From positions 1,994 through 65,993 of the forward strand of contig BEIA01000001.1 in the NCBI GenBank assembly GCA_002898715.1: 64,000 bases of DNA. Direction: 5' to 3'. This document shows, piece by piece, positions 38,068 to 53,765 of the stretch. Made by a program: the position numbers and the translations under genes. A model generated the notes under the pieces. That model did not search any database. It was not told the origin of the DNA and saw only the letters and a program-made list of their open reading frames with translations. How positions within the stretch are numbered: the first letter of the stretch is position 1; every line of letters begins with the position of its first letter. This stretch comes from a bacterium HR24 (GTDB taxonomy: Bacteria > Chloroflexota > Dehalococcoidia > SM23-28-2 > HRBIN24).

Positions 38068-38069
38068 CG

Positions 38070-39838: not shown

Positions 39839-40306
39839 TCATCCTCTGCTCTCTGCCATCGCTCTCGGCAGAGACCCCTTTATCCCTCTTATCCCTCCGG
39901 CCTGCGCCGTATCGCCTCCTCTCGTGCTCCTCGCTCTCCCTCCGGCGGCGGTCCTACCGCCCAAGACGAGCACCCCCTGCGCCGCCTCCTCGTCTGCCCA
40001 GTCGTTGTCGGCCGGCGTCCAGACCAGCACCCGCGGCGTCGTCCGGTACCTGGCGAAGGCGAGCAGCCAGTCCTCCATCTTGCGCCCGTCAGGCTCTATG
40101 AAGGCCACCGCCAGCGTCGCCGCTCCTATGACGGCCGCTACCAGGTAGCGCAGGGCGCCCGGCAGCGGCAGCGGCGGGGAGAGCACCACTGCTGCCGCAA
40201 AGAAGAGGCCGATGGCCATGACCATGACGTGCCGCACCGTCATGAAGCCGAAGAACACACGGTCCTCCACGTCCAGGTGGGTCGGCACCTCATGTCGCGG
40301 CAGCAT
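39839..40306 (-). CDS. Small membrane protein (VirB3/PrgI/TcpE-like candidate)
   Basis: Two hydrophobic helices (FFGFMTVRHVMVMAIGLFFAAAVV; LVAAVIGAATLAVAFI) in ~155 aa; location between the pilin-like gene and the large membrane protein. Confidence 0.35.
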   Translation of the reverse strand: MLPRHEVPTHLDVEDRVFFGFMTVRHVMVMAIGLFFAAAVVLSPPLPLPGALRYLVAAVIGAATLAVAFIEPDGRKMEDWLLAFARYRTTPRVLVWTPADNDWADEEAAQGVLVLGGRTAAGGRARSTRGGDTAQAGGIRGIKGSLPRAMAESRG

Positions 40307-40330
40307 GGCGCCCTCCCCTCGCCGCTCGCT

Positions 40331-40630
40331 CTAGCCACGCTCCATGCGGGCGGGGTTGCCCTCGGCCGTCATGTAGAGGAACGCTCCCCAGGCGATGAAG
40401 AGGGCGCACAGGGCCAGCGCCACGCCGGTGCCGATGTTGAGCAGGTTGTTGAAGAGCGTGTTGAGCTCGGAGGCCGGCGAGCCCTCGGCGCCTCCGCTGA
40501 CGCCTGGGATGGCGTCCTGCAGCATCCCTGCGATGGTCCGGGCCATAAGGACGATGATGAACCCCACGCCGGCGTTGATCATGGCCGCCTTGCCGGAAAC
40601 GTCCCGCAGGAGCGCATGCAGCCTCCGCAT
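40331..40630 (-). CDS. VirB2/TrbC-like pilin candidate (99 aa)
   Basis: Start MRRLHALL with AAGGAGGTGAAGG RBS; hydrophobic-charged-hydrophobic layout (AAMINAGVGFIIVLMARTIAG ... NIGTGVALALCALFIAWGAFLYM) typical of T4SS pilins. Confidence 0.45.
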   Translation of the reverse strand: MRRLHALLRDVSGKAAMINAGVGFIIVLMARTIAGMLQDAIPGVSGGAEGSPASELNTLFNNLLNIGTGVALALCALFIAWGAFLYMTAEGNPARMERG

Positions 40631-40707
40631 GGCCTTCACCTCCTTTCCCTCTCTCTGTCGCGCTACGGACCGTGTGTCCTCCATGGCGGTCGTCACCTCC
40701 CTTGCGT

Positions 40708-41232
40708 CTAGCTGCCCGGCAGAATCAGGTCCGATACCAGCCATCGCTCTCCCTCCTTTACGATCTGCAGCACTACCAGCCTCTCCGCCTGCCTCGGCCC
40801 GCTCCATTCGCCCCCGGGAGCGCCCGGCACGGCCCGAGCCGTTGCTCGCACCGCCATCTCGGCCCTGCCCTCCCCCTGGCGCAGGTCCACCGTCTCCACC
40901 TTGAGGACGGTGACCGTCAGCCGGTAGACCGACAGCTCCGGCTCGGGCTGCCGCGAGAGGATGCGGGAACGGATGGGGTCGGTGGCCAGCTCCGCCGCCC
41001 TCCGCCGCCACGCCTCATAGTCGCCCTCGTAGGTGTAGTAGCGGCGCACGAACTCCTCTCCCACCTTCTGAGGGCTCCGGGTGACATCCTCCTCCGCGGC
41101 CTTCGCCAGGATGCCTCCCTCCTTGGCACCCCCCTCCCCGCCGTCGCCGCCGCAGCGCACGAATGGCAGGGCGATGGCCGCTATGCATACGGCGGCGAGG
41201 GCGAAGAAGGCGAGCTCCAGCCTGGGCCTCAT
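40708..41232 (-). CDS. Secreted/lipoprotein-like protein (TcpC/NTF2-like candidate)
   Basis: Signal peptide MRPRLELAFFALAAVCIAAIALP followed by Cys; size and position match TcpC-like T4SS proteins. Confidence 0.4.
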   Translation of the reverse strand: MRPRLELAFFALAAVCIAAIALPFVRCGGDGGEGGAKEGGILAKAAEEDVTRSPQKVGEEFVRRYYTYEGDYEAWRRRAAELATDPIRSRILSRQPEPELSVYRLTVTVLKVETVDLRQGEGRAEMAVRATARAVPGAPGGEWSGPRQAERLVVLQIVKEGERWLVSDLILPGS

Positions 41233-41235
41233 CCT

Positions 41236-42213
41236 CTACACCTCCAGGAAGAGCAGCGGGTCCACCGCCTTGCCGTCCACGATGACCCCCAGGTGCAGGT
41301 GGGGCCCGGTAGACTGGCCCGTGTTCCCCACGGCCCCGATGACCTCGCCCTGCTGCACGGCCTGCCCGGGCGCCACCCACGCTTCGGACAGGTGGCAGTA
41401 GACCGTCCTGACGTTCTCCCTGTGGGCGATGACGATGCCCAGGCCACAGATGCTGTCCATCGTCACCGCCTGCACCACTCCACCGGCCGCGGCATGCACA
41501 GGCGTTCCTATGGGTGCAGGAATGTCGATGCCGGTGTGGGGTGTCGGCCCTCTCGCCTCGTCCACCTGCCCGAAGTAGCTGGAGATGCCATAGTAGCCCG
41601 GGACGGGCCACTTGAGGCCCCCTTGCCACTCGCCGCCCAAGCCGTAGGTGGCGGCCACCACCAGGATGCGGTCCACATAGCTCCAGTCGTGGTTGTAGGC
41701 GTACAGGGCCTGGCGCTGCGCCTCCAGGTCGTCATTGCGCCACCCGTGGTCCAAGAGGAAGCGCGCCACCGCCGGCAGGCAGTCCCGGTAGTCGTAGGGG
41801 TCTGCCACCCCGTCGCCGTTCTCGTCGCGGCCGTAGGCGGCCCACGTGTCCGGCATGAACTGACAGTAGCCCACGGCTCCTGCCGATGACGGCCCCATGT
41901 TCTGGCCGAAGCTCGATTCCTCCCTGGCGATGGCTGCCAGCACCTGCCAGGGAATGCCGTACCGCTCCTCGACGGTGATCATCACCTCCAGGTGGTCGGG
42001 CGGCACTGCCAACCCCTGGGGCCCGAAGTAGCTGCCCGCCTGCACGACCACGATGCCCATGAAGGTGGCGAGGGCGCCCAACAGGGCCGCCACGGCAGCG
42101 CCCACCGCCAGCATCACCCCTACCTTCACTCCCAGGATGCCGGCAAGCAGGCGCGCCGCCTGGCCTATCTGCCAGGCCGTCCCTATCGGGTTGGCATCCT
42201 GCTCCCTTCTCAT
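41236..42213 (-). CDS. Bifunctional cell-wall hydrolase: lytic transglycosylase (SLT) + M23 peptidase (CwlT/TcpG-like)
   Basis: SLT motif AIAREESSFGQNMGPSSAGAVGYCQFMP; M23 motifs HTGIDIPAPIGTPVHAA and GAVGNTGQSTGPHLHLGV; N-terminal TM anchor. Confidence 0.85.
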   Translation of the reverse strand: MRREQDANPIGTAWQIGQAARLLAGILGVKVGVMLAVGAAVAALLGALATFMGIVVVQAGSYFGPQGLAVPPDHLEVMITVEERYGIPWQVLAAIAREESSFGQNMGPSSAGAVGYCQFMPDTWAAYGRDENGDGVADPYDYRDCLPAVARFLLDHGWRNDDLEAQRQALYAYNHDWSYVDRILVVAATYGLGGEWQGGLKWPVPGYYGISSYFGQVDEARGPTPHTGIDIPAPIGTPVHAAAGGVVQAVTMDSICGLGIVIAHRENVRTVYCHLSEAWVAPGQAVQQGEVIGAVGNTGQSTGPHLHLGVIVDGKAVDPLLFLEV

Positions 42214-42229
42214 TTCCTAGCTGCCCCTG

Positions 42230-43462
42230 CTAACTGCTCCCGCTATTTGTCCGTGTGAAGCTACGCACCAGGTTGACGGTGCTGATGACGGGAGACCAGC
42301 CGGGCTGCCAGTAGCCCACGGCGCGGCTCAGCAGGTCAGGCACCTTCAGAGCAGCCAGCATGACGGCGATGGCAGCCACTGCCGTCACGACGAGGGGTAC
42401 TGACACCCCTGCTGCCCCCTGGACGGGGATGTAGAGTAGCCCCAGGGTCCCCCCCGACTCCTGCCAGATGATGTTCACCAGCCGGAAGCCCAGCACGAGC
42501 GTCCACACCTGGAGCGCCTGCTGAAAGACGGTAGCCGGGAAAAGGTCTGCCCACAGGCTGCTCCACTTCCGGGTCTGGGGCAGGATCCAGAGCATGAAGG
42601 CGATGGGCCCTGTCACCAGCAGCAGGTCGAGGATGACGAAGCGCATGAATAGCTGGCCGGCAAGGAATACCCCCAGTACCAGCATCACGATCCAGAAGAT
42701 GATCATGGGGACGACCCCAAGGGAGTTGAGCAGCTCCATCCCCGTGTTCTTCAGCTCGTCAGGGTGGATGACGGCCCGCACTAAGACGTTGTTGACGTCC
42801 ACGAGGAAGGTGGCAAGCCATGGGAACACGGCGATAAGGGCGATGGCCGCCGTTGCCCTAGGTAGCAGCTCTCCCACCTCATGGTAGGGGCTGGCTATGT
42901 GGCGGTTGGTCATGATGGCCACGCCGCCCCACATGAGGATGACGGCCAGGAGGCCGAGTGCTATCGCACGGGTGACCTGCATCATGTCCTGGACGAACGG
43001 GGCATGCACCGTGACCTCCTTGCCGGTGTTGCCCAGGAGGTCGTTAAAGGTAAACTCCACCAGCGCCACGAATGGCGCGAATATGAGCTTTATGAACCCC
43101 ACAAACACGTCCAGGAAGCACTTGGGCAGGTCGCCGAAGCACTCGCCCACCTTGCTGATGGTGCTGCCGATGCCGGTGAAAAAGCCCACGATGCCTCCCT
43201 CGCCCACCGGCCCCGGCGCATAGTAATAAGGAGGGCGCTGCTGGGGGGTCTCCTGGCCCGTTGGCGGCTCCGCCCCGCTCTCACCCTGGTCCTGCTGGGC
43301 CGCGGAGGGTGGGGGAGCATCGGCCCAGGCCCTAGCCGGCAGGCCCAGGCCGATGCTCCCCAGGGCAAGGAGCAACACCGCTACTGTCAGGAGTCGTGCC
43401 GCCGTCGTAGCTCGCAACATGCTCTCGCCTCGCTGCACGCCTCCCAGGGTAATGAGGCCCAT
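42230..43462 (-). CDS. Polytopic membrane protein (VirB6/TrbL-like channel component candidate)
   Basis: Signal/TM N-terminus then at least 6 hydrophobic helices (IIFWIVMLVLGVFLAGQLF, ILDLLLVTGPIAFMLWIL...); first gene of the minus-strand T4SS block; alternative start at MLRATTA (43420). Confidence 0.5.
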   Translation of the reverse strand: MGLITLGGVQRGESMLRATTAARLLTVAVLLLALGSIGLGLPARAWADAPPPSAAQQDQGESGAEPPTGQETPQQRPPYYYAPGPVGEGGIVGFFTGIGSTISKVGECFGDLPKCFLDVFVGFIKLIFAPFVALVEFTFNDLLGNTGKEVTVHAPFVQDMMQVTRAIALGLLAVILMWGGVAIMTNRHIASPYHEVGELLPRATAAIALIAVFPWLATFLVDVNNVLVRAVIHPDELKNTGMELLNSLGVVPMIIFWIVMLVLGVFLAGQLFMRFVILDLLLVTGPIAFMLWILPQTRKWSSLWADLFPATVFQQALQVWTLVLGFRLVNIIWQESGGTLGLLYIPVQGAAGVSVPLVVTAVAAIAVMLAALKVPDLLSRAVGYWQPGWSPVISTVNLVRSFTRTNSGSS

Positions 43463-43472
43463 GGTCTCCAGA

Positions 43473-43703
43473 GGGTCAAAGTGGCCTTCTTCGTGGTCTT
43501 GCCGGGGTCAAAATGGGCAGTTTCGGGGTCGTCTTAGGGTCAGATGGCGTAGTGTTGGCTAACCTAGTCGGGGTGGGCTATAGAGAGCTAGCGATACCTA
43601 TCTTGACCCTCAGGAGACCCTGGGAGGCGCCGATTTGACCCCCTGGAGACCCTGGAGAGGCGCGATTTGACCCTCTGGAGACCCTGGGGAGGCGTAGAAT
43701 GGG
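43473..43703. repeat. TTTGACCC-box array: inverted boxes (43473-43547) plus three ~35-bp tandem repeats (43603-43703); putative parC-like centromere or operator
   Basis: GGGTCAAAGTGG, GGGGTCAAAATGGG, GGGTCAGATGG (reverse orientation), then TTGACCCTCAGGAGACCCTGGGAGGCGCCGAT / TTGACCCCCTGGAGACCCTGGAGAGGCGCGAT / TTGACCCTCTGGAGACCCTGGGGAGGCGTAGA in tandem; lies downstream of parR. Confidence 0.55.
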
Positions 43704-43739
43704 GGAAGGGGGATGTCTCCACTGCTGCCGGGAGGATGC

Positions 43740-43979
43740 TTATAGGTCGTCATCCTCGCCGGCGATGTAGTCGAGCCACTCGTCCTGCCGATCGTCCTGG
43801 CACTGCTGTAGGTTCTGCCTCTCCAGCTCCGCATAGCTTGAGCGCAGCAGCTCCCGTATGAGGCTTGCTCGCTTCCCCCTCGGCGTCCTTGCCAACAGCT
43901 CCAGGAAGGTGCCATCTATGTCCGGGTCAAGGGTCACCCGCAGGCTGATGTGCACCCTCCTGGACCGTCGCCTGGGCAT
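43740..43979 (-). CDS. Ribbon-helix-helix (CopG/Arc/ParR-like) DNA-binding protein
   Basis: Start MPRRRSRRVHISLRVTLDPDIDGTFLELLARTPRGKRASLIREL is an RHH beta-strand plus helices; acidic C-terminal tail; directly downstream of the parM-like gene (ParR position). Confidence 0.55.
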   Translation of the reverse strand: MPRRRSRRVHISLRVTLDPDIDGTFLELLARTPRGKRASLIRELLRSSYAELERQNLQQCQDDRQDEWLDYIAGEDDDL

Positions 43980-45000
43980 CGGCCCCCTCCTCCTGCCTGT
44001 GCTCGAAATCGTCCTTCTGGGCCTGCTGCCTGGCAAGTAGGGCTGCACCTAGCTTCTGCAGACCGCGAGCGCCCGCTGCTATAGGATCCGTGGGGATGTG
44101 CACGTCACAGCGGACCGCCCTGCGCAGCTGGTCCAGTAGGCCCCTTTCCCGCAGCAGAGCCACGCCGCCGCCCGCCATGATGGTGAGGCTAGGACGTATG
44201 CCTGCCCAGCGTCTCCGGATGAAGCTGGCCACCTCGCTTGCCCATCTCGTGACTATCTCTTCACCCACAGTCAGCGTTCCTTCAGTGTATCGTCGCAGCA
44301 GCTCGTGGTAAGGCAGGTCCTGGTCGCCAGCTGCCTGTTCCAGCAGGAGCCGTACTCCCAGATCTGCACCCGCCATCATTCCCAAGTGGGCCTGCCCTCC
44401 TTCTATGCCCAGCAAATCGACAGTATTGAAGCCTATGTCGACAATGCCCACCAATGCTTTACGTGCTCCCGTAAGCAAGGAGCCGTCCGGCGTCACTGCC
44501 CAGTCCGCCCATACTCCCAGGGGCTGTGCCCTTATCCAGACTCGCTTGATGTCCAGGGTCATGGGGATGCCATCCACTTCGACGGTATGACAGCCTAGCA
44601 GGCGCTGTCGCGCTGCCCTTGTCACGTTCTCACTTCGGCCGCTCCCCTCGAGAACTGACACCGGTAGCCCTACCATGAGGCCGACCTGTCCCCCTTGGCC
44701 ACCAAGCGCCTTTGCCAGTGCACCGAGCATAAGTGCAATCGTCGGTGAGGTGACGAAGCGCATATCGTCGATGCTCTCGTAGGCGATGCCCCGCAGGGGG
44801 GCACCGCTTCCCACTGCGTACTCCTGGCCCTGCATCCGCACGATGGTGGCCTTGGCAACTCGCAGGCCGCTGGCAGCGAGTCCCACCCTACGCGGCGCGG
44901 CTACCAGGCTAGGCATGACTACGACGGACCTCTCAGTCGCCACCTTCACGTTGCCGAACCCGGGATCGAGTCCTACTGCCTGGAGCTTCACTGTCCTCAC
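43927..45000 (-). CDS. parM: ParM/StbA-family actin-like segregation ATPase
   Basis: N-terminal phosphate-1 motif VGLDPGFGNVKVA, later GIVDIGFNTVD (phosphate-2/adenosine motif), ~350 aa ASKHA fold; flanked by repeat arrays. Confidence 0.75.
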   Translation of the reverse strand: MRTVKLQAVGLDPGFGNVKVATERSVVVMPSLVAAPRRVGLAASGLRVAKATIVRMQGQEYAVGSGAPLRGIAYESIDDMRFVTSPTIALMLGALAKALGGQGGQVGLMVGLPVSVLEGSGRSENVTRAARQRLLGCHTVEVDGIPMTLDIKRVWIRAQPLGVWADWAVTPDGSLLTGARKALVGIVDIGFNTVDLLGIEGGQAHLGMMAGADLGVRLLLEQAAGDQDLPYHELLRRYTEGTLTVGEEIVTRWASEVASFIRRRWAGIRPSLTIMAGGGVALLRERGLLDQLRRAVRCDVHIPTDPIAAGARGLQKLGAALLARQQAQKDDFEHRQEEGADAQATVQEGAHQPAGDP

Positions 45001-45185
45001 CCCGTTTCATGTTACACGATTCGACCTCCTACGAAATATGTTACACGTTTGGCTCTGCTGCGGGAGACGCTACATGCAAGACATGACTCTCATCATCGCA
45101 CCATGCTCCCCCTGGTGCCCATTGCCTTCCTCACCAACTGCGCTCGGGAGGCCCCTACCGTTACCGCCCATTACGTCGTGCAGGC

Positions 45186-45465
45186 TACTGACTACTCGGT
45201 TTGACCCTGAAGGCGTAGATGTGACAGAGGAGAAAGAGGGAGATGGTAGGCGCGTGAGCAGATTGTACCACCTGCACTTTGGCTCCTGGCATGCCACCGG
45301 TTCTAGTCTTCTGTAGATGACTCCCAGATAGGACCTAGGGCGTGCCGCTTTATGGCTACCGACTACTCGTTTTGACCCTGAAGGCATAGCCGTGACACGT
45401 AAGCAAATGGGAGATAGCATGAGCAAGGGGAGATTGTACCATTGCCACTTGCCGTGTGCTGCCCT
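45186..45465. repeat. Two ~110-bp imperfect direct repeats upstream of parM (TTTGACCCTGAAGGC-containing; putative parC/promoter)
   Basis: Copy 1 ~45186-45300 and copy 2 ~45356-45465 share GACTACTCG(G/T)TTTGACCCTGAAGGC(G/A)TAG...GTGACA...GGGAGAT...GAGATTGTACCA...CTTG; a third TTTTGACCCTGAAATGACCCTGACATGAC box lies at ~45555. Confidence 0.6.
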
Positions 45466-46177
45466 CATACCCTGTCCGTAGCGTTAAGCTCATGCCAAAT
45501 AGGGGCCTCGGCCCTGCTCGTCCGGCCGCCTTAATTAAGTGAGCGCCCAATGTTTTGACCCTGAAATGACCCTGACATGACTATACCTCCCCCCAAAATC
45601 CCCCCGTCATTGCACCCGCGTGCTGCCATGACCACACCCGTGCCCATCATCACCTGTGCACCCGTTGGGGTATCGTCTTCCATGCTTTCCCTCTCGCCCA
45701 CATCGCCACCGGATCTCCTTCACCCGGCTACCGGTTCTCTCCTTCTCTCACCCACCGTCCCCTTCCACCGGTATGCCGTGTTCTTTGGGCTCGCGCATGC
45801 GATGTCGCAGCGGTCTGTGTCCCCATGTGCACCGTCGCGTGCCACAAGGCATGCGGGGGCAGGGACCGGCGGGTCCCAGCGCTTACCCACCACATCTCTC
45901 TGCGGGGGCATGCAGGTGCCCGATTGGGAGCGCATACAGACTCCCCTCACCTGGAGTACCCGAGGGGGTGCTATGGGAGGATAGGTAGGCGCGATCTGCT
46001 GTGAGGTCTGCCCGTTTTCAGATAGACAGGTGGCTATGGGCCGTGCTACCCAGGGGGCTTCCGTCCCATACCGCGGGACCTGTCCCCGTACAGGCCACGG
46101 CGGGACGACCTGCCGGGTGCGGGAGACGCCTCTGTTTGAGCCACCTGATGACTCGGGCCACTCGCCTGTGGGGACCT

Positions 46178-46606
46178 TCAGGCATGGGGGCCTTCCTGGC
46201 AGGCGTTCCCCATGAGGGCGCGGGCGCACCTGCACCGGTGAGCGCCGTCATCGGCGCCTGCCGGCGCGTGCAGGGCAAGCCGATGCCCCGGCGCGGCGCC
46301 TGCCCTAGCCAGCGTCCCGGCTGGCAGCTCCAGGGCGATGCGGGCATGGGGGCCTCCCATCACCATGCGGAACGGCGGGACGGCACTTGCCGTCTTGAGC
46401 ACCAGCCCGGTGCGGTCCAGGAAGGCGACATCGAGGGGGAAGCGCATGAAGAAGGTATGGATGGCAGAGCAGGGGGCTAGAAGGAGGCCCTCGCCCGGGT
46501 CCAGGCATCTGCGGCCCAGGAGGCCCACGAGCCTCCTCCACCAGGTGCAGGCACAGGCAAGGCGGTAGGCAAGGATGCTGCCGGTCGTGAGGTCTACCAC
46601 CTGCAT
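46178..46606 (-). CDS. DUF192-family protein
   Basis: MQVVDLTTGSILAYRLACACTWWRRLVGLLGRRCLDPGEGLLLAPCSAIHTFFMRFPLDVAFLDRTGLVL...ALELPAGT follows the DUF192/COG1430 pattern. Confidence 0.5.
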   Translation of the reverse strand: MQVVDLTTGSILAYRLACACTWWRRLVGLLGRRCLDPGEGLLLAPCSAIHTFFMRFPLDVAFLDRTGLVLKTASAVPPFRMVMGGPHARIALELPAGTLARAGAAPGHRLALHAPAGADDGAHRCRCARALMGNACQEGPHA

Positions 46607-47391
46607 CCTATAACCATGATAGGACGGGTGGATAGGGGCATCCCCGCCGTGTGCCTGCCCTCCCTTCGGGGAGCATCTCATCTCGTCGACCGTGCGCCGT
46701 GGCTGCCGGTGCACCGCCGGGGTGGTGGGGGCAGCCTCAGGGGTGGCGGATACACAGTCGGGTATGCCGGCGCTGCCGTCGGGAGCCTCGCTTCTGGGAG
46801 GGGCCTACCTAAGCGAGGGGCTGCAGCACAAATTGACCCCAAGCCGACCCTGGAGGGGTGGACGAGGGATAGGTGAGAATGTGAGATCATGGTTGGAGCG
46901 GTGATATCCTCGGGCGATGGATGCCTTGGAGTGCCTTAAGGTGACAGTATCCGCCCCTGAAGGTGTTGACAACCCTAGAGGGAGGCGCTAGCGTTAGCGG
47001 TTGCGAAGAGTGGTGTGATAGCCCCCAAGAGGGGGCACCTCGCCTCATGGGCGAGGCTCCGCCACCCCCGGCGGCGGCGTGAAGCCTATCCCCCTACAAG
47101 GGGCTCTGGGCTGAAGTGGCCGGGGAAGCGGACTGGGCCCTGTCGTGATGGGCCTTGGTCCGCACAGGAGGTAGCCTCCAGGAAGCGGGAGGAGGCACCT
47201 CCAGAGTGCCGTCGGCGCTCCGGTTGGGGACCGACGGCTGCGGGCAGTAGGAAAAAGCCCCCTCAGCAGGGGGGCCAACCCCAGGATTGAACGGGTTGGC
47301 GTCCCTGCCGAGGGGGTTATTGTCGTTTGACAGCCCCCTCGTCGGGTAGGGTGGCAGCATCCTGCCCCATCAGGGGGCTGTCGACCCCCAG

Positions 47392-47435
47392 GCCCCAGGA
47401 GGATGGCCCCACCTCCTGGGGCTTTTGTATTTGGG
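47392..47435 (+). terminator. Intrinsic terminator-like hairpin
   Basis: Perfect 10-bp stem CCCCAGGAGG / CCTCCTGGGG with 9-nt loop, followed by CTTTTGTATTTGGGG; a near-identical copy lies at 48832. Confidence 0.5.
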
Positions 47436-47495
47436 GCCCTCCGTCGGAGCTGGCCCGGCCGGCGGTGCAAAACCAAAAGGGCTGGAGGTGAACGT

Positions 47496-48242
47496 ATGCG
47501 ACGGTGGGTGTTGTTCTTCCTCCTGGGGGGCATCCCGGGGCTCCTCCTGGCACTCCTGCTGGGGGCTGCTCCCATGCCTCCCATTTTGCGGCGCCTCCTC
47601 CTGGTGGGGGGCGCCGGCCTGCTGGGGGCCCTCTTCCTGGGGGCCATAGCAGGCAACTTGGGGCTCCGGGCGACGGGGCCCGAGGACCCCACTCCCGCAT
47701 TCGCGGCTGCGGGCGCGGTGGCCGTGGCGGGCGCAGCCGTCACCCTGGCAGTCGTGGCCGCCATGGCCGTCCGGGCTGCCCGCCGGCCCGGACGGCCCGC
47801 TCAGGCCGCCCCGACCACCCCGACCGCCGCGGCCGCCACAGGGAGCGAGGGCACCCAGGGCAGCCCCGCTCCCGCCGTGGCCGTGCACGGCGCCGCCCCG
47901 GAGGAGGCGGCCCGGCTGGAGGCCCTGCTGCGGCCGGTCTCGTCCCTCCTGGGCCGGCCCCTGGTGGTGGTCATCACGCCAGGGAGGCCCCGCGGGTGGC
48001 GGCTGGAGGGGGGCGTCCTCCTCCAGGTCCCCCGCCCCCAGGAGCGGCTCCTGCTAGCCGCCCTGGAGGATGCCCTCCTGGGCAGCGGCAGCCCAGGCGC
48101 CCCTCGACGGGAGCGGCCGTCGCGGCGTGCCCCTGAGGCCGACGTGGCCACAGCATCCCGCCGGCCGCGGCCCGAGGACATCGCCGCCGCTGTGGGAGGC
48201 GCCACACCGGAGGGGAATGGTCCAATGAATGGAGGTGTATAA
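47496..48242 (+). CDS. Membrane protein, paralog A (Ala/Gly-rich TM helices + Pro/Arg-rich C-terminus)
   Basis: MRRWVLFFLLGGIPGLLLALLLGA... ; about 85% identical at the protein level to the product of 59106-59822; start chosen at the ATG preceded by GGAGGTGAACGT. Confidence 0.55.
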   Translation: MRRWVLFFLLGGIPGLLLALLLGAAPMPPILRRLLLVGGAGLLGALFLGAIAGNLGLRATGPEDPTPAFAAAGAVAVAGAAVTLAVVAAMAVRAARRPGRPAQAAPTTPTAAAATGSEGTQGSPAPAVAVHGAAPEEAARLEALLRPVSSLLGRPLVVVITPGRPRGWRLEGGVLLQVPRPQERLLLAALEDALLGSGSPGAPRRERPSRRAPEADVATASRRPRPEDIAAAVGGATPEGNGPMNGGV

Positions 48243-48469
48243 TGATGCTGGCGATGGTCAGTCGAGAGCTGAAGGAAGCGTTTCGAGCTGCAACGCGCCT
48301 GCCTCCGGAGGCACAGAGGGAGCTTGCCGCCTTGATCATGGAAGAGATTGCCGACGAAGAGCGATGGGCTGCCCTGTTTGCCGATCCTCGCAGTGAGCCA
48401 CTCATTGCGCGCCTTGCGGCTGAGGCGGTGGCAGAGGATGATGCAGGCCTCACCGAGCCCTGCGATTGA
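48242..48469 (+). CDS. Putative antitoxin (small acidic protein)
   Basis: 75 aa; ATGA overlap with the downstream RelE/ParE-like gene; acidic C-terminus. Confidence 0.45.
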   Translation: MMLAMVSRELKEAFRAATRLPPEAQRELAALIMEEIADEERWAALFADPRSEPLIARLAAEAVAEDDAGLTEPCD

Positions 48470-48738
48470 GGTCCAGGACAACTCGCTCGTTTAGACAGCA
48501 GTTGGAGGCCCTGCCACCGCACATCCGACGTCAGGCGCGCAAGGCGTATGAACTCTTCCGTGCCAATCCTTCGCACCCCAGCCTCCACTTCAAGCACGTT
48601 ATCGCTAATGTCTACTCAGTCCGCATCACACGAGGATACCGGGCGCTCGGCGTGAAGCGGGGGGATAGCATAGTCTGGTTCTGGATTGGCAGCCACGACG
48701 AGTATGAGCGCATGTTGAGGGCAGAGCCTGGGATCTAG
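48466..48738 (+). CDS. RelE/ParE-superfamily type II toxin
   Basis: 90 aa; core VYSVRITRGYRALGVKRGDSIVWFWIGSHDEYERML matches the RelE/ParE pattern (YR(I/V)..R.GDYRiiY.....i.il.IGHR.e.Y). Confidence 0.55.
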   Translation: MRSRTTRSFRQQLEALPPHIRRQARKAYELFRANPSHPSLHFKHVIANVYSVRITRGYRALGVKRGDSIVWFWIGSHDEYERMLRAEPGI

Positions 48739-48831
48739 CCTAACGACCGGTACTGAGGAGTCTCACCCCCCCAGCGCCCTTCGTGACGGGAGGGCGCCGG
48801 AGAGGGGGTGAGAGATTCATATGTCCCCAAG

Positions 48832-48875
48832 CCCCAGGAGGATGGCCCCACCTCCCGGGGCTTTTGTATTTGGGG
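48832..48875 (+). terminator. Intrinsic terminator-like hairpin (second copy)
   Basis: CCCCAGGAGG-ATGGCCCCA-CCTCCCGGGG followed by CTTTTGTATTTGGGG; ~95 nt after the toxin stop. Confidence 0.45.
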
Positions 48876-50322
48876 CCCCTGTCTGGCGGCGGGGCCGCAG
48901 GCGGCCAGGCGGGGAGTTTGTCGACGGGACTGCGGCAGGTGCCGGCAGGACGCCGTCCCCCAGGAGAGGGTGGGCCTGGGCGAGAAGGCCAGGGCCTATA
49001 GCGCCCCCGCCACCTGCTCCATCCCCATCTCCTGCGGGCGCCCGGGCGGAGTGGGGATGGTGCTGGTCGGGACCGGGCGTCGGGGTGGCCCCGCCCCGTC
49101 CTCTCGGAGAGCGGGAGGGCCGAGAGGAGAAGGACGCGCCTGCACCTCCATGGGAGGGGGCGCGTCCAGGGGGACCCTTCCCCGATGCTCCCCAGGGGAA
49201 GGGTGCTCAGTCCGGGGGAGCACCCGCCGGAGCTGGCCCGGCCGGTGGGGAAAGTTATGGGCCAAAAGGGGGGAAGAAGGGGTGAAGGAGGTGCTGTGTA
49301 GTCAGCGCTCCCCGGGCTGCCTGCCCACCCGGGAGGGGCGCTAGTAACTGAATCCCACCCACCCCTGTGGGTGAGGTGGGGGACGCCCCAGGGTTAGCCC
49401 TCCTGGGGCGATAAAGGCGGAGGGCCCCCAGGAGCCCCAAGGCGGGGGGCGCTCCCCCGCGCGGCGGGTATGGCGTCCGCGGCGGGGCCCCTGGGTTTTC
49501 CCCCCTCGTGTCGGGGCTACCGGCGCACGGAGGGTTGGCCGTCCGGCAGGCGGCCTGGCCCGGGCCGGCTGCGGCGAAGGAGTGTCCACCCCAGGGCGGA
49601 GAGGTCACCCCCTCTCCAGCGCTCTTTCTCAAGGGGAGGGCGCCGGAGAGGGGGTGAGAACTTTTTGAGAACTTTTAAGGCCTGCCTCAGGGATACGGCC
49701 CCGGAAGAGGAAGGGCCGCAGCCGGGGCACGTCCCTGTGGCCCATGTCCGGCCGCGGCCCTACCTCACCAGGAGGTTCGCATGGACAGGCGGACCCATTC
49801 GTGGTCCGTCCCGTGCTCCTGCGACCTTGGCGACGCTTGCCCCGTCGCCAAGGCCATTATAGCACAGAGCACGGCGACGGGCCGCGGGCAGGGCCGCTAA
49901 GCCCCTGCCCGCTCCAACCGAATCCCCCCACCCCGTGGGGCGGTGTTGGCCTGGTAGCCGCACCGGGGGCGATGCTCCAGCCCTGCCGGGGGACGTGGGG
50001 ACTCTCTCCCTACCATCGTGGCCGGATGGTAGGGGTCCGGGAAGGCCCTCCTCCCCGCACCCGCCAGGGAGGGGCCAACTGAATAGGGCTGGAAAACTGA
50101 ATAGCCCCGGCGCTCTCCCCGAGGCACCGGGGCAGGCGGGATAGGGGCAGGGGGTGGGAAGCCGCGGCAGCCGGCACCCACCCCTGTGTGTTGCTGCCCT
50201 CCCCTGTGGAGCGCCCGCCGCCACGGGGGAGTAGAGAGGGCGGGCTTCCCGCCCCTGGCCCCGGGGGCAAAGCCCTCCCCGAATGGGGCACAAATCGAAG
50301 GGGAGGGCAGGAGGAGCATCCC

Positions 50323-51423
50323 ATGGCAACCAGCAAGAAGAGCCATATCATCGACCCCCTTGACGAGGGGGTCGACCCCAGGCTGGCGGTTCTCGCCGCT
50401 ATCCGGGAGCAACTCCCGGAGGGCGGCGATGACGCCGCCGCCCCCGCCAAGACCGAGGCGCCCAAGGCGGGCGCCAAGGCTCAGGCCCAGGCCCCGGCCG
50501 TGGCTACCGTGGCCGACACCGACCTCCAGGCGGCCTTGCGCCGCCTGGAGGAGCGGGCCAAGACGGCCCGCCAGGAAGCCGAGGCCCGACTGGCGGAGGC
50601 CAACGGCCTCCGCCAGCGGCTGGGCGAGCTAGCCCGGGAACGGGGCCGGCTCGCCCACGTCGCCCGCCGCGCCCAGGCGCTTGCAGCCTGGGCCGGCGAG
50701 GAGGCCCGGGCCCTGGCGGAGCAGGCCGAGGCCCGCATGCGGGCCATCGAGGAGGAAATGGACGCCATCCGCATTCGCCTCCAGGAGATGGAGGCGGACC
50801 AGGGCATTCGCCTCCTCCGCGCCGAGGAGGCGGCCCGGGCCGAGGCCGAAAAGGCCAAGGCCCAGGCCGAGCAGGCCCGCCAGCTGGCGCGCGAGGGCAA
50901 GCTGGCAGAGGCCCTGGCCAGCCTCCCCGCCCGGCCCGAGGAGGGCTCCCCCGTGGCGGAGGCCCGGCAGGAGCTCCTGCGCACCGCCCACCGTGTGGTG
51001 GGCAACGCCATCTTCCGCGCCCGGGAGGCCCTCGCGGCCGGCGAGGCCGAGCGGGCGCTGAAGGAGATCCAGGGGGTAGCCCGCCTCCTCCCCCACGTTC
51101 GAGGGGAGGACCGGCGGGCGGCCCATGGGGTGTTTTGCCAGGCGGTTCACCGCCTGGCACCCCCCGGCCAGCCCCTAGTGGTCATCCGGGGGCGGCGGCT
51201 TGCCCGAAGGGGCCGTCTCACATGGACGGCCCCGCCCGGGGCCATTGCTGTCGGCACCCCCCTTCGTGGGGCTGCCAGAGTGCTCTACGACCTGGGCACC
51301 CCCTGGAAGGAAGGGGCCTTCGTGCGCGCGGAGGAGGCTGACATACAGCCCCTCCGCACGCGGCACGGTGCGGAGGGGAACAAGCCCCCCGCACCGTGCC
51401 GCAGCAAGGGGGCGAGGGGATAA
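50323..51423 (+). CDS. Coiled-coil hypothetical protein
   Basis: Start MATSKKSH preceded by AGGAGG; long Ala/Glu/Arg-rich heptad region (EEARALAEQAEARMRAIEEEMDAIRIRLQEMEADQG); conserved leader motif upstream. Confidence 0.45.
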   Translation: MATSKKSHIIDPLDEGVDPRLAVLAAIREQLPEGGDDAAAPAKTEAPKAGAKAQAQAPAVATVADTDLQAALRRLEERAKTARQEAEARLAEANGLRQRLGELARERGRLAHVARRAQALAAWAGEEARALAEQAEARMRAIEEEMDAIRIRLQEMEADQGIRLLRAEEAARAEAEKAKAQAEQARQLAREGKLAEALASLPARPEEGSPVAEARQELLRTAHRVVGNAIFRAREALAAGEAERALKEIQGVARLLPHVRGEDRRAAHGVFCQAVHRLAPPGQPLVVIRGRRLARRGRLTWTAPPGAIAVGTPLRGAARVLYDLGTPWKEGAFVRAEEADIQPLRTRHGAEGNKPPAPCRSKGARG

Positions 51424-51889
51424 CCCTCGCCCCCTCCCCTCCTAACGGAGGGGGCCTCCTGCTCCCACAGGGGGCCCCGAGAGGGAGGTGACAGTATGCC
51501 GTATCCCTTTCTCCTGTCACCCCGGCCCTCCAAGGGGAGGGCCCAACCTCCATCCTCGGGGCTCCCTGCGGGGGCAGGAGCCTCGTACCCCCATCGCCAC
51601 GGGCCCCCTGTGTCGCTCCGCCGCCCACCGCATCCCCGCGTGCCCCAACCTCGTCGCCGGCACTCCTGGGACGCGAGCGGCCCCGGGGCAGCGGGCGGCG
51701 GGTGGCAGAGGGAGGCCAAAGGCCAGCACGACCCCTGTCTTGGGGGGTGGTGCTGTCGGGGCCCCTGGGGGCGGAGGCCCCCACCCCCTTTCCTCTTCCC
51801 CCTTCCCCCCTTCGGGGGGGAGGGGGAGAAGTGTGCCGCTCAGAGCTCCACCCTGGGCGGCAGAAAGGGTATTGGGGAGGTGAGGTGAG

Positions 51890-52159
51890 ATGGTAAGCAT
51901 CACCGACCTCCTCCTACTGGCCAGGCGCCAGCAGGAGGACACCTTCGCTGCGGCCCTGGCGACAAGGCTCGGGCCGCCAGGGGAGGCGTGGGAGGCCGTG
52001 GCCCAGGCGCTGGGGATGCCCTGGGAGCGGTTCCTGTGCCTCCTTACCTGCCGCCTGCCCAGGACGGCAGCGGCGGCCGAGGCCCTGGCCGGGGCCTTCG
52101 GCCTCCCCAAGGAGGCCATCCTGGCCCTGGCCGAGGGGGAGCTGCCGGGAGGGGTGTGA
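51890..52159 (+). CDS. Small hypothetical protein
   Basis: 89 aa; GGGGAGGTGAGGTGAG RBS; TGATG overlap with the primase start. Confidence 0.35.
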   Translation: MVSITDLLLLARRQQEDTFAAALATRLGPPGEAWEAVAQALGMPWERFLCLLTCRLPRTAAAAEALAGAFGLPKEAILALAEGELPGGV

Positions 52160-53220
52160 TGGCCCGACCCGGCAGCGGGTGGAGGGACCTCAAGGAGGAG
52201 GTCCTCCGCCTGTACTCCCCCCTGGACGTGGCCCAGCGCTATGGGCTCGAGCTCCGGCGCATGGGCCGTGTCTGGGCAGCGAGGTGTCCCTTCCATCCGG
52301 ATACACGGCCCTCCTTCTTCGTGTATCCGGATGGCTTCCACTGCTTCGGCTGCGGCTGGCACGGGAACGTGGTGGACTTTGTCGCCGCGGCCGAGCAGGT
52401 GGGGTGGCGGGAGGCCCTCGACCTCCTCGCCGGCGGGCACCTCGGTGCCCCCAAGGCCGTCCGCCCACCGGCCCCGGAGGAGCGGGCGCCGACGGCCGAG
52501 GAGCTGGCCGCGGTGCAGGTCGCCTGGGAGACCTGCCGCCGGCACCTCCGGGACCGCCGGCCCCGCGAGTACCTCACCAGGCGGGGCATCCCCCTGGACG
52601 TGGCCGAGGAGCTCGGCCTCGGCTACTGGGCGCCAGGGGTGGCCACCCGCCTGGAGGCGCTGGGGCTGGTGGAGGCCGCCCTCGCAGTGGGGCTCCTGCG
52701 ACGGCGACGCTCCCCTATGGGGGAGGAGCTGCCGCGCTACTGGGAGCCCTTCCGGGGTCGGGTCATCATACCCGACCTCACGAGGGGCGGCCAGGCCCGG
52801 TGGCTCACCGGCAGAGCCGCCGATGACGTCACCGAGCCCAAATATCTCAACCTCTCCCTCCCCAAGCCCCTGCTGGGGCTGGACACGGTGGAGGGAGAGG
52901 AGGCGGCCCTGGTGGAGGGGCCCCTCGACTGGGTGGCGGCAAGGGCCATGGGCCTTCCCGCCGTCGCCACCCTGGGGGCCCACGTGGGCCGCCTGAAGAT
53001 CACCTCGCTGGCCAGGTTCCGGCGGGTGTTCCTGCTGTTTGACGCCGACGAGGCCGGGCAGCAGGCAGCCAGGGACCTGGCCAAGGCCCTGGGCCGGCGG
53101 GCGGTCATCGTCCCCATCCCCAAGGGGGCCAAGGACGTGGCCGACCTGCTGCTGGCCCAAGGCGGAAAGGGCCGCCTCCTCAGGGCCATGGAGGCGGCCA
53201 GAGAGAAAAAGGGAGGATGA
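52159..53220 (+). CDS. DNA primase (DnaG-type: CHC2 zinc finger + Toprim)
   Basis: Zinc finger CPFHPDTRPSFFVYPDGFHCFGCGWHG; Toprim motifs VIIPD...EGPLDWV...FLLFDADEAGQQAA. Confidence 0.75.
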   Translation: MARPGSGWRDLKEEVLRLYSPLDVAQRYGLELRRMGRVWAARCPFHPDTRPSFFVYPDGFHCFGCGWHGNVVDFVAAAEQVGWREALDLLAGGHLGAPKAVRPPAPEERAPTAEELAAVQVAWETCRRHLRDRRPREYLTRRGIPLDVAEELGLGYWAPGVATRLEALGLVEAALAVGLLRRRRSPMGEELPRYWEPFRGRVIIPDLTRGGQARWLTGRAADDVTEPKYLNLSLPKPLLGLDTVEGEEAALVEGPLDWVAARAMGLPAVATLGAHVGRLKITSLARFRRVFLLFDADEAGQQAARDLAKALGRRAVIVPIPKGAKDVADLLLAQGGKGRLLRAMEAAREKKGG

Positions 53221-53534
53221 GGATGGCGCTTGTCATCTCTCCCCTCCCTGCCCAGGCGCCCGCCTCTCGCCACCGGCGGGCACGGGAGCTCCTGCGGCTC
53301 ATGAGGGCCCATGCAGCTCTCATGGCAGCCGCCTCAAGGGTCTGCCCCGGCGCCCCAATGCCCGTCGGTGGCCCGGAGGCGCGCCGCTTCCTGCTACTCC
53401 TCCAGGAGGCAGGAGCGAGCCCCTATGCCCAGGGGCGCGCCCTGGCCCTGCTGGAGTGGCAGGCGGAGCGGCTCCTGAGGCAAGGAGGGGAGAGAAGTCC
53501 TACCTGCCGGGCAAAGATGCCACCCGGCAGGTAG
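53217..53534 (+). CDS. Hypothetical protein
   Basis: 105 aa; overlaps the primase stop; no motifs. Confidence 0.3.
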   Translation: MRMALVISPLPAQAPASRHRRARELLRLMRAHAALMAAASRVCPGAPMPVGGPEARRFLLLLQEAGASPYAQGRALALLEWQAERLLRQGGERSPTCRAKMPPGR

Positions 53535-53600
53535 AATGAGAGAGGGAGAGGGGCCCAGGGACTGCCCAGGGAGCCCTCCCCTGTGGGAGGGCAGGTGAGC

Positions 53601-53765
53601 CATGCCTCTACAGCCGGAGGCGGCCACCATACTGAGGCCCCTCGTGGAAGGGGGCCTCGCCCTGGGCGTAGGCATGGCCCTCCTCCTCTGGGCCGCCGGC
53701 TCCCGCTACTTCGAGGTCATCTTCATCCTCGCAGCCTTCGGGCTGCTCGTCTACATCTGGCGGTA
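53601..53765 (+). CDS. Small membrane protein (54 aa), absent from the ORF track
   Basis: MPLQPEAATILRPLVEGGLALGVGMALLLWAAGSRYFEVIFILAAFGLLVYIWR; GGGAGGGCAGGTGAG RBS 7 nt upstream. Confidence 0.3.

What the first reader, a model, noticed from the sequence alone, without database searches (positions are those of the whole stretch)
46900..47435. Candidate structured non-coding RNA ending at a strong intrinsic terminator
About 450 nt upstream of the hairpin terminator at 47392 there is no credible ORF; the candidates are Pro/Arg-rich wrong-frame artefacts. The stretch is instead packed with local inverted repeats: GCCCCCAAGAGGGGGC, CCTCGCCTCATGGGCGAGG, GACAGCCCCCT...AGGGGGCTGTC and GGGTTGGCGTCCCTGCCGAGGGGGTT. 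This density of stems, ending in a terminator, is what a structured ncRNA looks like. Candidate classes include large prophage-associated RNAs, ribozyme-like RNAs or a long leader.
Basis: seen in the sequence. Interest (0 to 1): 0.5.

Follow-up and report, generated by a model that had tools for sequence, protein, structure and literature searches.

The report
Structured leader RNA in conjugative element
A roughly 430-base non-coding stretch in a mobile conjugative element of a heat-loving Chloroflexota bacterium folds into about ten hairpins, lies between a conserved promoter and a strong terminator, matches no described RNA family, and probably controls read-through into the genes behind it.

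Summary
Window 47010-47430 is non-coding and folds far better than chance (z = -8.9). It ends in a canonical intrinsic terminator.

I found the same element at the same position in related conjugative elements, in three sequence types that differ by 14-21%. All three keep every hairpin. The real substitutions leave the folding energy unchanged. The same substitutions placed at random cost 33-67 kcal/mol. G·U pairs outnumber A·C mismatches 44 to 9, which points to the + strand. A TTGACA-N17-TAnCGT promoter is conserved just upstream.

No Rfam family matches, including GOLLD, ROOL, HEARO, group II introns and 6S.

The element sits at the head of the rightward gene arm of an integrative conjugative element (ICE). 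Its terminator lies 70 nt before the first gene, with no promoter in between, and further terminators follow downstream.

My best reading (about 0.45) is a cis-acting leader RNA that governs terminator read-through, as canT does in Tn916 or the leader of the pLS20 conjugation operon. A free-standing RNA or a single-stranded-DNA element remain possible.

Strict covariation is underpowered with only three lineages. Transcription is untested. The element is real, of moderate interest, and narrowly distributed.

The parts
46830..46965 (.). Conserved but unstructured upstream block, probably an operator or control region. It lies between the divergent DUF192 gene (46606-46178, minus strand) and the RNA promoter, and contains GACCCTGGAG at 46846-46855.
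   Evidence: 93% identical to L081 and 66-68% to the more distant L085, L086, L089 and L090, without gaps. The spacer to its left drops to 57-61% with many gaps. Folding z is positive. The GACCCTGRAG motif occurs 4 times in the window against 0.67 expected, always between 43648 and 46855.
46966..46994 (+). Sigma-70-type promoter: -35 TTGACA (46966-46971), 17-nt spacer, -10 TAGCGT (46989-46994). The inferred transcription start is near 47001.
   Evidence: TTGACA is identical in every sequence that reaches it (window, L081, L085, L086, L089). The -10 reads TAGCGT, TACCGT or TAACGT, while the spacer varies in L089. The pattern is unique in the 64-kb window against 0.01 expected. The -10 matches TATAAT at only 3 of 6 positions, so the tool's standard scan does not list it. 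The start site is inferred.
47001..47126 (+). Sequence-conserved 5' domain. P1 (47010-47015 with 47060-47065) encloses hairpins P1a (47021-47036) and P1b (47038-47056). P2 (47066-47125) is a branched hairpin with an invariant 29-nt core, TCCCCCTACAAGGGGCTCTGGGCTGAAGT (47089-47117).
   Evidence: Folds. 90-91% identical to both other types, against 67-69% for the hairpins that follow. The invariant core was the search pattern that retrieved L091-L094.
47128..47163 (+). Hairpin H3.
   Evidence: Present in all three types at -23 to -24 kcal/mol. One G-C to A-U double change. Several one-sided changes to G·U. Type B has 4 G·U in 13 pairs.
47167..47202 (+). Hairpin H4. Its 3' arm, GGGAGGAGGC, is invariant and its 5' arm varies.
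   Evidence: Present in all three types at -22 to -24 kcal/mol. Pair counts.
47208..47238 (+). Hairpin H5, with a conserved apical CCGGUU loop region.
   Evidence: Present in all three types at -20 to -23 kcal/mol. The outer stem is GCCGUCGG/CCGACGGC in the window and UGCUGGCC/GGCCAGCA in L089, a different sequence with the same hairpin.
47256..47328 (+). Long hairpin H6 (47256-47318) followed by a conserved U-rich tail, UUAUUGUCGUUU. It may act as a first, weaker terminator.
   Evidence: Inverted repeat I1. -44 to -53 kcal/mol in all types. One A-U to G-C double change. Three one-sided changes in the apical stem, all to G·U. Listed as terminator-like at 47301-47317.
47327..47385 (+). Long hairpin H7.
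   Evidence: Inverted repeat I2. -42 to -61 kcal/mol in all types. The basal 13 pairs are conserved and the apical stem is rewritten between types. Type B has 4 G·U in 9 apical pairs.
47392..47432 (+). Intrinsic terminator T1: stem-loop 47392-47422 (about -25 kcal/mol), then UUUUGUAUUU.
   Evidence: 94-96% identical in the other types. The same 54-nt module recurs at 48825-48878 after the ParE-like toxin gene, so it is used as an operon terminator.
47433..47495 (+). Conserved 5' UTR of the first downstream gene, with Shine-Dalgarno GGAGG at 47485-47489 and ATG at 47496. No promoter-like site lies between T1 and the ATG.
   Evidence: 98% identical in both other types, more conserved than the gene behind it, whose protein is 86% identical. 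The promoter scans found nothing here. Pairing of CCCUCC (47437-47442) with the Shine-Dalgarno sequence is predicted but not significant, z = -1.6.
47496..48738 (+). Downstream operon: a 248-aa membrane-like protein (47496-48242), a 75-aa antitoxin-like gene (48242-48469) and a ParE-like toxin (48466-48738). It ends at terminator T2 (48830-48862).

Best explanation
The stretch is transcribed on the + strand from a sigma-70-type promoter at 46966-46994. The product is a non-coding RNA of about 430 nt.

The RNA has four parts:
- a sequence-conserved 5' domain of about 125 nt (two branched helices);
- five hairpins (H3-H7) that keep their shape while their sequence drifts;
- a strong intrinsic terminator, T1;
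- a very conserved 60-nt 5' UTR leading to the first gene.

The RNA is the leader of the rightward gene arm of an integrative conjugative element. That arm runs from a membrane protein and a ParE-type toxin-antitoxin pair on through a primase and MoxR/VWA genes. I propose that the leader acts in cis on the transcribing RNA polymerase and decides whether transcription stops at T1 or reads through. Read-through would also have to pass the further terminators downstream. This is attenuation or processive antitermination, as shown for canT in Tn916 and for the leader/conAn system of pLS20.

Shown here:
- the stretch is non-coding;
- it folds more than chance allows;
- the hairpins are kept across three diverged types;
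- the structure has a + strand signature;
- the promoter motif, the terminator and the UTR are conserved;
- the genomic position is conserved.

Inferred, not shown: that the stretch is transcribed, where transcription starts, and above all that the RNA acts in cis on termination.
For: **Non-coding.** No codon periodicity. No ORF is shared by the three types. No gene was called in the MAG.

**Structure above chance in every type.** Against dinucleotide shuffles, z = -8.9 (window), -7.7 (L081) and -12.4 (L089).

**Structure preserved in evolution.**
- The three types differ by 62-92 substitutions in about 440 nt, yet each hairpin H3-H7 persists with similar stability.
- Applying the real substitutions to one type gives an MFE of -261 to -293 kcal/mol.
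- Placing the same substitutions at random gives -218 to -233, z = -3.5 to -8.1, with 0-1 of 300 as good.
- Substitutions are about twice as frequent in unpaired as in paired positions.
- 88-91% of cells are paired, against 41-58% when the partners are slid.

**Strand.**
- The + strand MFE is 29-42 kcal/mol better than the - strand in all types.
- For L081, z is -7.7 on + against -4.8 on -.
- In H3-H7 there are 44 G·U cells against 9 A·C.

**Transcription signals.**
- TTGACA-N17-TAnCGT is conserved in all sequences that reach it and is unique in the window.
- T1 is canonical, 94-96% conserved, and reused after the downstream operon.

**Leader logic.**
- T1 lies 70 nt before the ATG. No promoter-like site lies between them.
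- That UTR is 98% conserved.
- All genes from 47496 to the end of the window are on the + strand.
- Further terminator-like hairpins follow at 48830-48862 and 49605-49675.

**Context.** The element lies in the divergent control region of an ICE. The ICE carries an integrase, a Replic_Relax protein, a T4CP, VirB4, TrbL and a ParM-like ALP on the left, and a primase and MoxR on the right.

**Precedent.** canT of Tn916 is a 452-nt, multi-stem-loop, orientation-specific, cis-acting RNA antiterminator that lies between a promoter and terminators (PMC11658703). The pLS20 conjugation operon starts with a 456-nt leader that holds an attenuator (bioRxiv 10.1101/2025.11.24.689506).
Against: - No expression data of any kind are available.
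- The -10 hexamer matches the consensus at only 3 of 6 positions.
- Strict compensatory changes are few: 1-2 pairs per segment, no more than in shuffles. Only three lineages exist, so classical covariation has no power.
- No specific alternative pairing was found that would compete with T1. The T1 5' arm can pair about equally well (-19 to -29 kcal/mol) with many G/C-run segments.
- The conserved 5' domain is 260 nt away from T1, which is unlike a riboswitch.
- H6 with its U-tail and then T1 look like tandem terminators. That would suit a free-standing RNA equally well.
- The identical 248-aa gene also occurs without this element, directly behind another gene (L083; the paralogue at 59100).
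- Folding excess is not unique to this spot. Coding DNA at 50-56 kb also folds better than mononucleotide shuffles.
Confidence: 0.45

Rival explanations
1. It is a free-standing, trans-acting non-coding RNA of about 330-430 nt. It starts at the same promoter and is efficiently terminated at H6/T1. It works away from its own locus, for instance by binding a protein or pairing with ICE or host transcripts to control maintenance or transfer. The downstream operon would then have its own, non-canonical promoter.
For: The promoter, structure and strand evidence are the same as for the leader model. Two terminator-like elements lie in tandem, H6 with its U-rich tail and then T1. The 5' domain is sequence-conserved, with a 29-nt invariant core, as expected for a binding surface. 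Large structured RNAs ending in a terminator are known from mobile elements (established knowledge: ROOL, GOLLD).
Against: No promoter-like sequence lies between T1 and the ATG 70 nt downstream. No significant complementarity to other parts of the window was found. The hairpin loops carry no repeated motif such as GGA (sequence reading). The RNA matches none of the 4227 Rfam families.
Confidence: 0.25
2. The hairpins work as single-stranded DNA, not RNA. They would form a single-strand origin or priming site (sso/ssi), or a single-strand promoter, used when the ICE is transferred or replicates by rolling circle.
For: The element is in an ICE that encodes a Replic_Relax protein, a UvrD-type helicase and a DnaG-like primase. 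The hairpins are also significant with DNA energy parameters, z = -7.5. sso elements are non-coding, orientation-specific sets of stem-loops and exist in ICEs (PMC4595007). From memory only: the ssoA loop motif CS-6 is TAGCGT, the same hexamer as the putative -10 here. This is a lead, not a test.
Against: The many G·U pairs are much less favourable as G·T in DNA: 44 cells, with up to 4 of 9 pairs in one stem. A conserved -35/-10 motif lies upstream of the structure rather than inside it, and a bona fide transcription terminator lies at its end. Both are unexplained by an ssDNA role. The element is 16 kb from the relaxase-like gene, whereas sso1 of ICEBs1 lies directly behind nicK (PMC4595007). 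It spans about 430 nt and about 10 hairpins, against about 200 nt and 3 stem-loops. There is no blastn similarity to any PLSDB plasmid or phage record.
Confidence: 0.12
3. It has no single function. It would be an accumulation of terminator-like and palindromic sequences in a recombination-prone intergenic region, or a set of palindromic protein-binding sites in double-stranded DNA.
For: The region is mosaic. Identity to L081 jumps from 99.3% to 87% at about 45920-46122. Terminator modules are duplicated. Other long non-coding stretches with hairpins lie nearby. Strict covariation is not significant.
Against: The hairpins are kept in register and in stability through 14-21% divergence, far better than random placement of the same substitutions. 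The G·U to A·C asymmetry of 44:9 is not expected for double-stranded DNA palindromes. The 5' domain, T1 and the UTR are more conserved than the neighbouring coding sequence. The body is single-copy in the window and in all fetched loci.
Confidence: 0.08

Closest known systems
canT, the cis-acting processive antiterminator RNA of Tn916 (PMC11658703)
   Same: Both lie in a conjugative element. Both are non-coding regions of about 450 nt predicted to form many stem-loops, placed between a promoter and an intrinsic terminator in the same orientation. In both, further terminators sit inside a long one-directional gene array.
   Different: The host phylum differs (Firmicutes against Chloroflexota). 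No sequence relationship was detected: there was no hit in the plasmid or phage collections, although canT itself was not compared directly. canT controls the conjugation and DNA-processing genes. Here the type IV secretion genes lie on the other arm. Function is demonstrated for canT and only inferred here.
Leader of the pLS20 conjugation operon: zipper-type attenuator cATT (bioRxiv 10.1101/2025.11.24.689506) and the conAn1/conAn2 antitermination system (PMC8191782)
   Same: Both have a long leader (456 nt in pLS20, about 495 nt here counting the UTR) in front of the first gene of a long operon of a conjugative element. Both have a long imperfect stem-loop directly followed by an intrinsic terminator (H7 then T1).
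   Different: The defining 'zipper' was not found. In pLS20, the segment before the long stem is complementary to the 5' half of the terminator. Here the H7 stem can be extended by only 2 pairs. No ConAn1-like protein was identified. The operon here is not the conjugation operon.
Single-strand origin sso1 of ICEBs1 and the sso of rolling-circle plasmids (PMC4595007)
   Same: Both are non-coding, strand-specific clusters of stem-loops inside an ICE.
   Different: An sso is about 200 nt with three stem-loops, lies next to the relaxase gene and works as DNA. This element is twice as long and 16 kb from the relaxase-like gene. It is rich in G·U pairs and is framed by a promoter and a terminator.
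Large ornate RNAs of mobile elements (ROOL, GOLLD, HEARO; Rfam)
   Same: Comparable size class (hundreds of nt), many helices, and a location in mobile DNA.
   Different: No match to their covariance models at any threshold tried. Here most helices are simple consecutive hairpins whose sequence drifts freely. Only the first 125 nt or so are sequence-constrained.

Membership tests
   The whole window at gathering score gives only a tRNA at 5709-5781. At E <= 10 on 46000-49500, and at E <= 5 on homologues L089 and L093, there are only sub-threshold miRNA-type hairpin hits at less than half the gathering score. Apart from one miRNA hairpin model (mir-9242) that hits H6 in two of the three sequences, no family recurs at the same place.
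Intrinsic (Rho-independent) terminator | A GC-rich stem-loop directly followed by a U-tract on the transcribed strand. | tested here: met
   47392-47422 is an 11-bp stem of about -25 kcal/mol, followed by UUUUGUAUUU. It is conserved in all types. The same module ends the downstream operon at 48830-48870.
Sigma-70-type promoter | -35 and -10 hexamers at 16-18 nt spacing. | tested here: inconclusive
   TTGACA (6 of 6), a 17-nt spacer and TAGCGT (3 of 6, with T1, A2 and T6 present). This is below the scan's threshold. Both hexamers are conserved while the spacer varies, and the pattern is unique in the window. No start-site data are available.
Structured RNA (general) | Base pairs maintained by compensatory substitutions (covariation). 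| tested here: inconclusive
   88-91% of cells are paired against 41-58% for slid partners. Only 1-2 pairs per segment have changes on both sides, no more than in shuffles. Only 3 distinct lineages exist. An alignment-light test is strongly positive: the real substitutions preserve the MFE, and random placement does not (z = -3.5 to -8.1).
Processive antitermination RNA (canT, conAn2, EAR, put) | Lies in the transcript between the promoter and the terminators it overrides, in one orientation. | tested here: met
   The order on the + strand is promoter 46966-46994, structured RNA, T1 at 47392-47432, operon, T2 at 48830-48862, then a long-stem hairpin with a U-tract at 49605-49675.
Processive antitermination RNA (canT, conAn2, EAR, put) | Makes RNA polymerase read through several, also heterologous, terminators in cis. 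| not testable with these tools
   This needs reporter or in vitro transcription assays.
Processive antitermination RNA (canT, conAn2, EAR, put) | Sequence or structure homology to a described member. | tested here: not met
   There is no EAR or other Rfam hit. There is no blastn hit in the plasmid or phage collections. The canT and conAn2 sequences themselves were not available for a direct comparison.
Zipper-type attenuator (cATT of pLS20) | A long imperfect stem-loop followed directly by an intrinsic terminator in the leader of the operon. | tested here: met
   H7 (47327-47385) is followed by T1 (47392-47432).
Zipper-type attenuator (cATT of pLS20) | The segment upstream of the long stem is complementary to the 5' half of the terminator, so that the stem can extend into an antiterminator. 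| tested here: not met
   H7 can be extended by only 2 pairs. The T1 5' arm pairs about equally well (-19 to -29 kcal/mol) with several unrelated G/C-run segments, and no single partner stands out or is used in all three types.
Single-strand origin (sso) or ssDNA priming site | Similarity to known sso types, and a position next to the relaxase or rep gene. | tested here: not met
   There is no blastn match to 72,556 plasmids. The Replic_Relax gene is at 29055-30797, 16 kb away.
Single-strand origin (sso) or ssDNA priming site | Orientation-specific promotion of second-strand synthesis on ssDNA. | not testable with these tools
   This needs plasmid stability or ssDNA accumulation assays.
Protein-coding gene | An ORF with codon periodicity, conserved in homologues. 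| tested here: not met

The most novel reading that the evidence does not exclude
The element founds a new family of large cis-acting processive antiterminator RNAs in conjugative elements of Chloroflexota. A conserved 125-nt 5' domain would reprogram RNA polymerase so that it passes T1 and the terminators behind it. This would extend RNA-only antitermination of the canT/put/EAR kind to a distant phylum and to thermophiles. It would also offer a compact conserved core for structural work.
Probability: 0.2. Interest if true: 0.6.

Novelty: new member of a known kind. Interest (0 to 1): 0.45.

Why it matters
Conjugative elements must keep their genes silent while integrated and switch on long operons after excision or entry into a new cell. 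Structured leader RNAs that control terminator read-through have only recently been shown to do this, and only in Firmicutes (Tn916, pLS20).

A comparable element in thermophilic Chloroflexota would suggest that this logic is widespread. It would also provide a new, undescribed RNA with a small invariant core. Even if the function turns out to be different, the stretch is an unannotated, conserved and structured non-coding element at the control hub of an ICE.

Tried and rejected
- **Rfam.** Searched at gathering score and at permissive E-values, on the window and on homologues. Nothing was found.
- **blastn** of 46700-47500 against the plasmid and phage collections: no match.
- **Exact look-up** of the window's own downstream proteins: not on record.
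- **Genome-contig scan with the DUF192 protein.** It returned only relatives at 50% identity or less. An HMM of the element found nothing in those 80 loci.
- **Viral contig scans** with two conserved 20-21-mers: nothing.
- **The 60%-identical DUF192 (P0012).** It is a chromosomal paralogue without the element.
- **P0004** could not be looked up.
- **L082, L083 and L084** belong to the paralogous gene context and lack the element upstream of that gene.
- **Repeat families.** The body is not a repeat family or a REP-like element. It is single-copy in the window and in all loci.
- **Protein coding** was rejected.
- **Minus-strand terminator.** A look-alike at 47276-47256 is not conserved in L081 or L089 and was dismissed.
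- **CsrB-like protein sponge.** No recurrent GGA loop motif (reading).
- **Specific antiterminator pairing for T1.** Searched for and not found.
- **Structure-aware alignment.** MAFFT Q-INS-i was unavailable. The covariation counts therefore rest on sequence alignments that misalign some stems.
- **Whole-window z-score scan.** It timed out and was replaced by a 40-56 kb scan with mononucleotide shuffles.

Full report
**Observation.**
- The fourth quoted string is the 3' arm of a 29-nt-arm repeat, 47253-47281 with 47293-47321.
- The terminator is canonical: an 11-bp GC-rich stem at 47392-47422 followed by TTTTGTATTT.
- Window 46990-47435(+) folds at -277.6 kcal/mol, against -219.7 +/- 6.5 for dinucleotide shuffles (z = -8.87).
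- The region has no third-position GC periodicity, while the flanking genes do.
- Its ORFs have no Pfam match and none is shared by the homologues.
- The structured part is 47010-47430. Window 46900-47000 is unstructured and holds a promoter.

**Context.** The window carries an integrative conjugative element (ICE).
- The left part holds a tRNA gene (5709-5781), an IS110 transposase and a tyrosine integrase (9076-10296).
- It continues with a restriction-modification gene, helicases, a Replic_Relax protein (29055-30797), a coupling protein (31253-34276), VirB4-like and TrbL-like proteins, and a ParM-like actin (43927-45000). All of these transfer genes are on the minus strand.
- From 47496 to the end of the window, all genes are on the plus strand. 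They are a 248-aa membrane-like protein, an antitoxin with a ParE-like toxin, a coiled-coil protein, a DnaG-like primase, MoxR/VWA pairs and a CCA-enzyme-like protein.
- The finding lies in the divergent region between the two arms, between a DUF192 gene (46606-46178, minus strand) and the 248-aa gene.

**Homologues.** DNA searches of the plasmid and phage collections found nothing. Relatives of the flanking proteins led to the same arrangement elsewhere.
- L081 is a Chloroflexota MAG, GCA_033581795.1, found through.
- L089 is a Logan assembly of ERR14790949, found through.
- L085, L086 and L090 are contigs that end inside the promoter region.
- A 21-nt invariant core used as a pattern retrieved four more contigs from JGI, NCBI and ENA metagenomes (L091-L094). 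They are near-identical to L081.
- There are therefore three full-length types: A (window), B (L081 and L091-94) and C (L089). They differ by 62-92 substitutions over about 440 nt.
- An HMM of the element finds nothing in 80 loci with distant DUF192 genes. Only the terminator module recurs. The family is narrow.

**Conservation profile, window against L089.**

| Segment | Identity |
|---|---|
| Spacer next to DUF192 | 61% |
| Upstream block 46830-46965 | 67% |
| Promoter | 80% |
| 5' domain 47001-47126 | 90% |
| Hairpins H3-H7 | 67% |
| Terminator T1 | 96% |
| 5' UTR | 98% |

The -35 TTGACA is invariant. The -10 reads TAGCGT, TACCGT or TAACGT, while the spacer changes. The pattern TTGACA-N17-TAnCGT is unique in the window.

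**Is the structure selected?**
- Each type folds far better than its shuffles: z = -8.9, -7.7 and -12.4.
- Every hairpin H3-H7 is found in every type with similar stability. This holds although the outer stem of H5 and the apical stem of H7 have different sequences in different types.
- I applied the real substitutions that separate two types to one of them. The MFE stayed at -261 to -293 kcal/mol. The same substitutions placed at random gave -218 to -233 (z = -3.5 to -8.1, 0-1 of 300).
- Substitutions are about twice as frequent at unpaired as at paired positions.
- Formal pair counts on MAFFT alignments give 88-91% paired cells, against 41-58% with slid partners. Only 1-2 pairs per segment have changes on both sides, no more than in shuffles (also 41).
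- With three lineages and some misaligned stems, classical covariation is underpowered. I rate it inconclusive.

**Strand.**
- The + strand MFE is 29-42 kcal/mol lower than the - strand in all types, with 16-25 G·U pairs against 5-13.
- For type B, z is -7.7 on the + strand and -4.8 on the - strand.
- In H3-H7 there are 44 G·U cells against 9 A·C cells.
- The structure therefore belongs to the + strand. This agrees with the promoter and with the U-tracts after H6 and T1.

**RNA or single-stranded DNA?** With DNA parameters both strands are significant, so folding alone cannot decide. Three things favour RNA:
- the many wobble pairs;
- a conserved promoter outside the structure;
- a terminator that is demonstrably used as an operon terminator elsewhere (48825-48878).

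An sso-like role remains a minority rival. The described ICE sso is about 200 nt with three stem-loops and lies directly behind the relaxase gene (PMC4595007). Here the relaxase-like gene is 16 kb away.

**Mechanism.**
- T1 lies 70 nt upstream of the first ATG of the rightward arm.
- No promoter-like sequence lies in between, even with relaxed criteria.
- That UTR is the most conserved piece of the locus.
- Downstream on the same strand lie T2 (48830-48862) and a 24-bp hairpin with a U-tract (49605-49675), both before the next gene.
- This is the layout of leaders that control terminator read-through in conjugative elements. One precedent is canT of Tn916 (452 nt, many stem-loops, cis-acting, orientation-specific, processive; PMC11658703). 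The other is the 456-nt leader of the pLS20 conjugation operon with its zipper-type attenuator and the conAn system (bioRxiv 10.1101/2025.11.24.689506; PMC8191782).
- I therefore favour a cis-acting leader that governs read-through (confidence about 0.45). The conserved 5' domain would be the active part. H3-H7 would act as structural spacers or stabilisers.

Against this model:
- I found no specific alternative pairing for T1.
- The zipper complementarity is absent.
- H6 with its U-tail followed by T1 would equally suit a free-standing RNA (rival, 0.25).

**Comparison and novelty.**
- No Rfam family matches, in the window or in the homologues. GOLLD, ROOL, HEARO, group II intron domains and 6S are excluded as memberships.
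- The element resembles canT and the pLS20 leader in position, size and architecture. It shows no detectable homology to them, lies on the non-conjugation arm, and comes from a different phylum.
- I class it as a new, undescribed member of a known kind: structured non-coding leaders or RNAs of conjugative elements.
- Interest is moderate. The element is real and conserved and sits at a control hub. It is also narrowly distributed, without expression data, and its mechanism is inferred.

Noticed in passing
window 43648-46855 (43648, 45203, 45374, 46846; also 45183-45279/45354-45450 and 45556-45577): The motif GACCCTGRAG occurs 4 times, all on the + strand, against 0.67 expected. It lies inside two 97-nt direct repeats and next to TGACCCTGAA iterons upstream of the ParM-like gene. 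This looks like a parC-type centromere or operator. One copy lies 110 nt upstream of the RNA promoter, so the same protein may regulate it.
   Followed up: partly
window 47386-47439 and 48825-48878; L083: A 54-nt terminator module (96% identical copies) brackets the cassette of the 248-aa gene, the antitoxin and the ParE-like toxin. A Logan contig carries the identical 248-aa gene and antitoxin directly behind a CCA-adding-enzyme-like gene, as does the window's paralogue at 59100-59822. The cassette appears to move by recombination.
   Followed up: partly
window 48740-50320: This is a second long non-coding stretch of about 1.5 kb. It holds two related 22-24-bp long-stem hairpins (48761-48813 and 49605-49657, the latter followed by a U-tract) and a partial copy of the 5' UTR (49224-49253). 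Only the hairpin at 49591-49659 is well conserved in L081 (95.7%).
   Followed up: partly
window 50253-50319, 53835-53901, 59041-59107: A 67-nt sequence with a hairpin, ending in GGAGGTGAACATG, is repeated 75-84% identical just upstream of three genes of the rightward arm. It is a shared 5' UTR or translation-initiation module.
   Followed up: no
window 37468-45920 versus 46122 onward (L081): The type IV secretion and partition module is 99.3% identical to the MAG contig L081. Everything to the right of about 46100 is only 74-89% identical. This marks a recent recombination breakpoint inside the ICE, just left of the DUF192 gene.
   Followed up: no
window 50000-56000: Protein-coding DNA of the rightward arm folds much better than mononucleotide shuffles in almost every 150-nt window (z down to -12), unlike the 40-46.9 kb coding region. 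The cause is unknown and may be compositional. Dinucleotide controls were not run.
   Followed up: no
window 46178-46606 (minus strand); L095-L102: The ICE-borne DUF192 gene has a roughly 60% identical chromosomal paralogue next to riboflavin genes. It is found in the same kind of metagenomes, including assembly VAPR01, which also holds the element. The ICE gene may have been captured from the host lineage.
   Followed up: partly
window 47437-47489: CCCUCC directly after T1 can pair with the Shine-Dalgarno GGAGG of the 248-aa gene. The fold is not significant (z = -1.6), but the whole 60-nt UTR is 98% conserved.
   Followed up: partly
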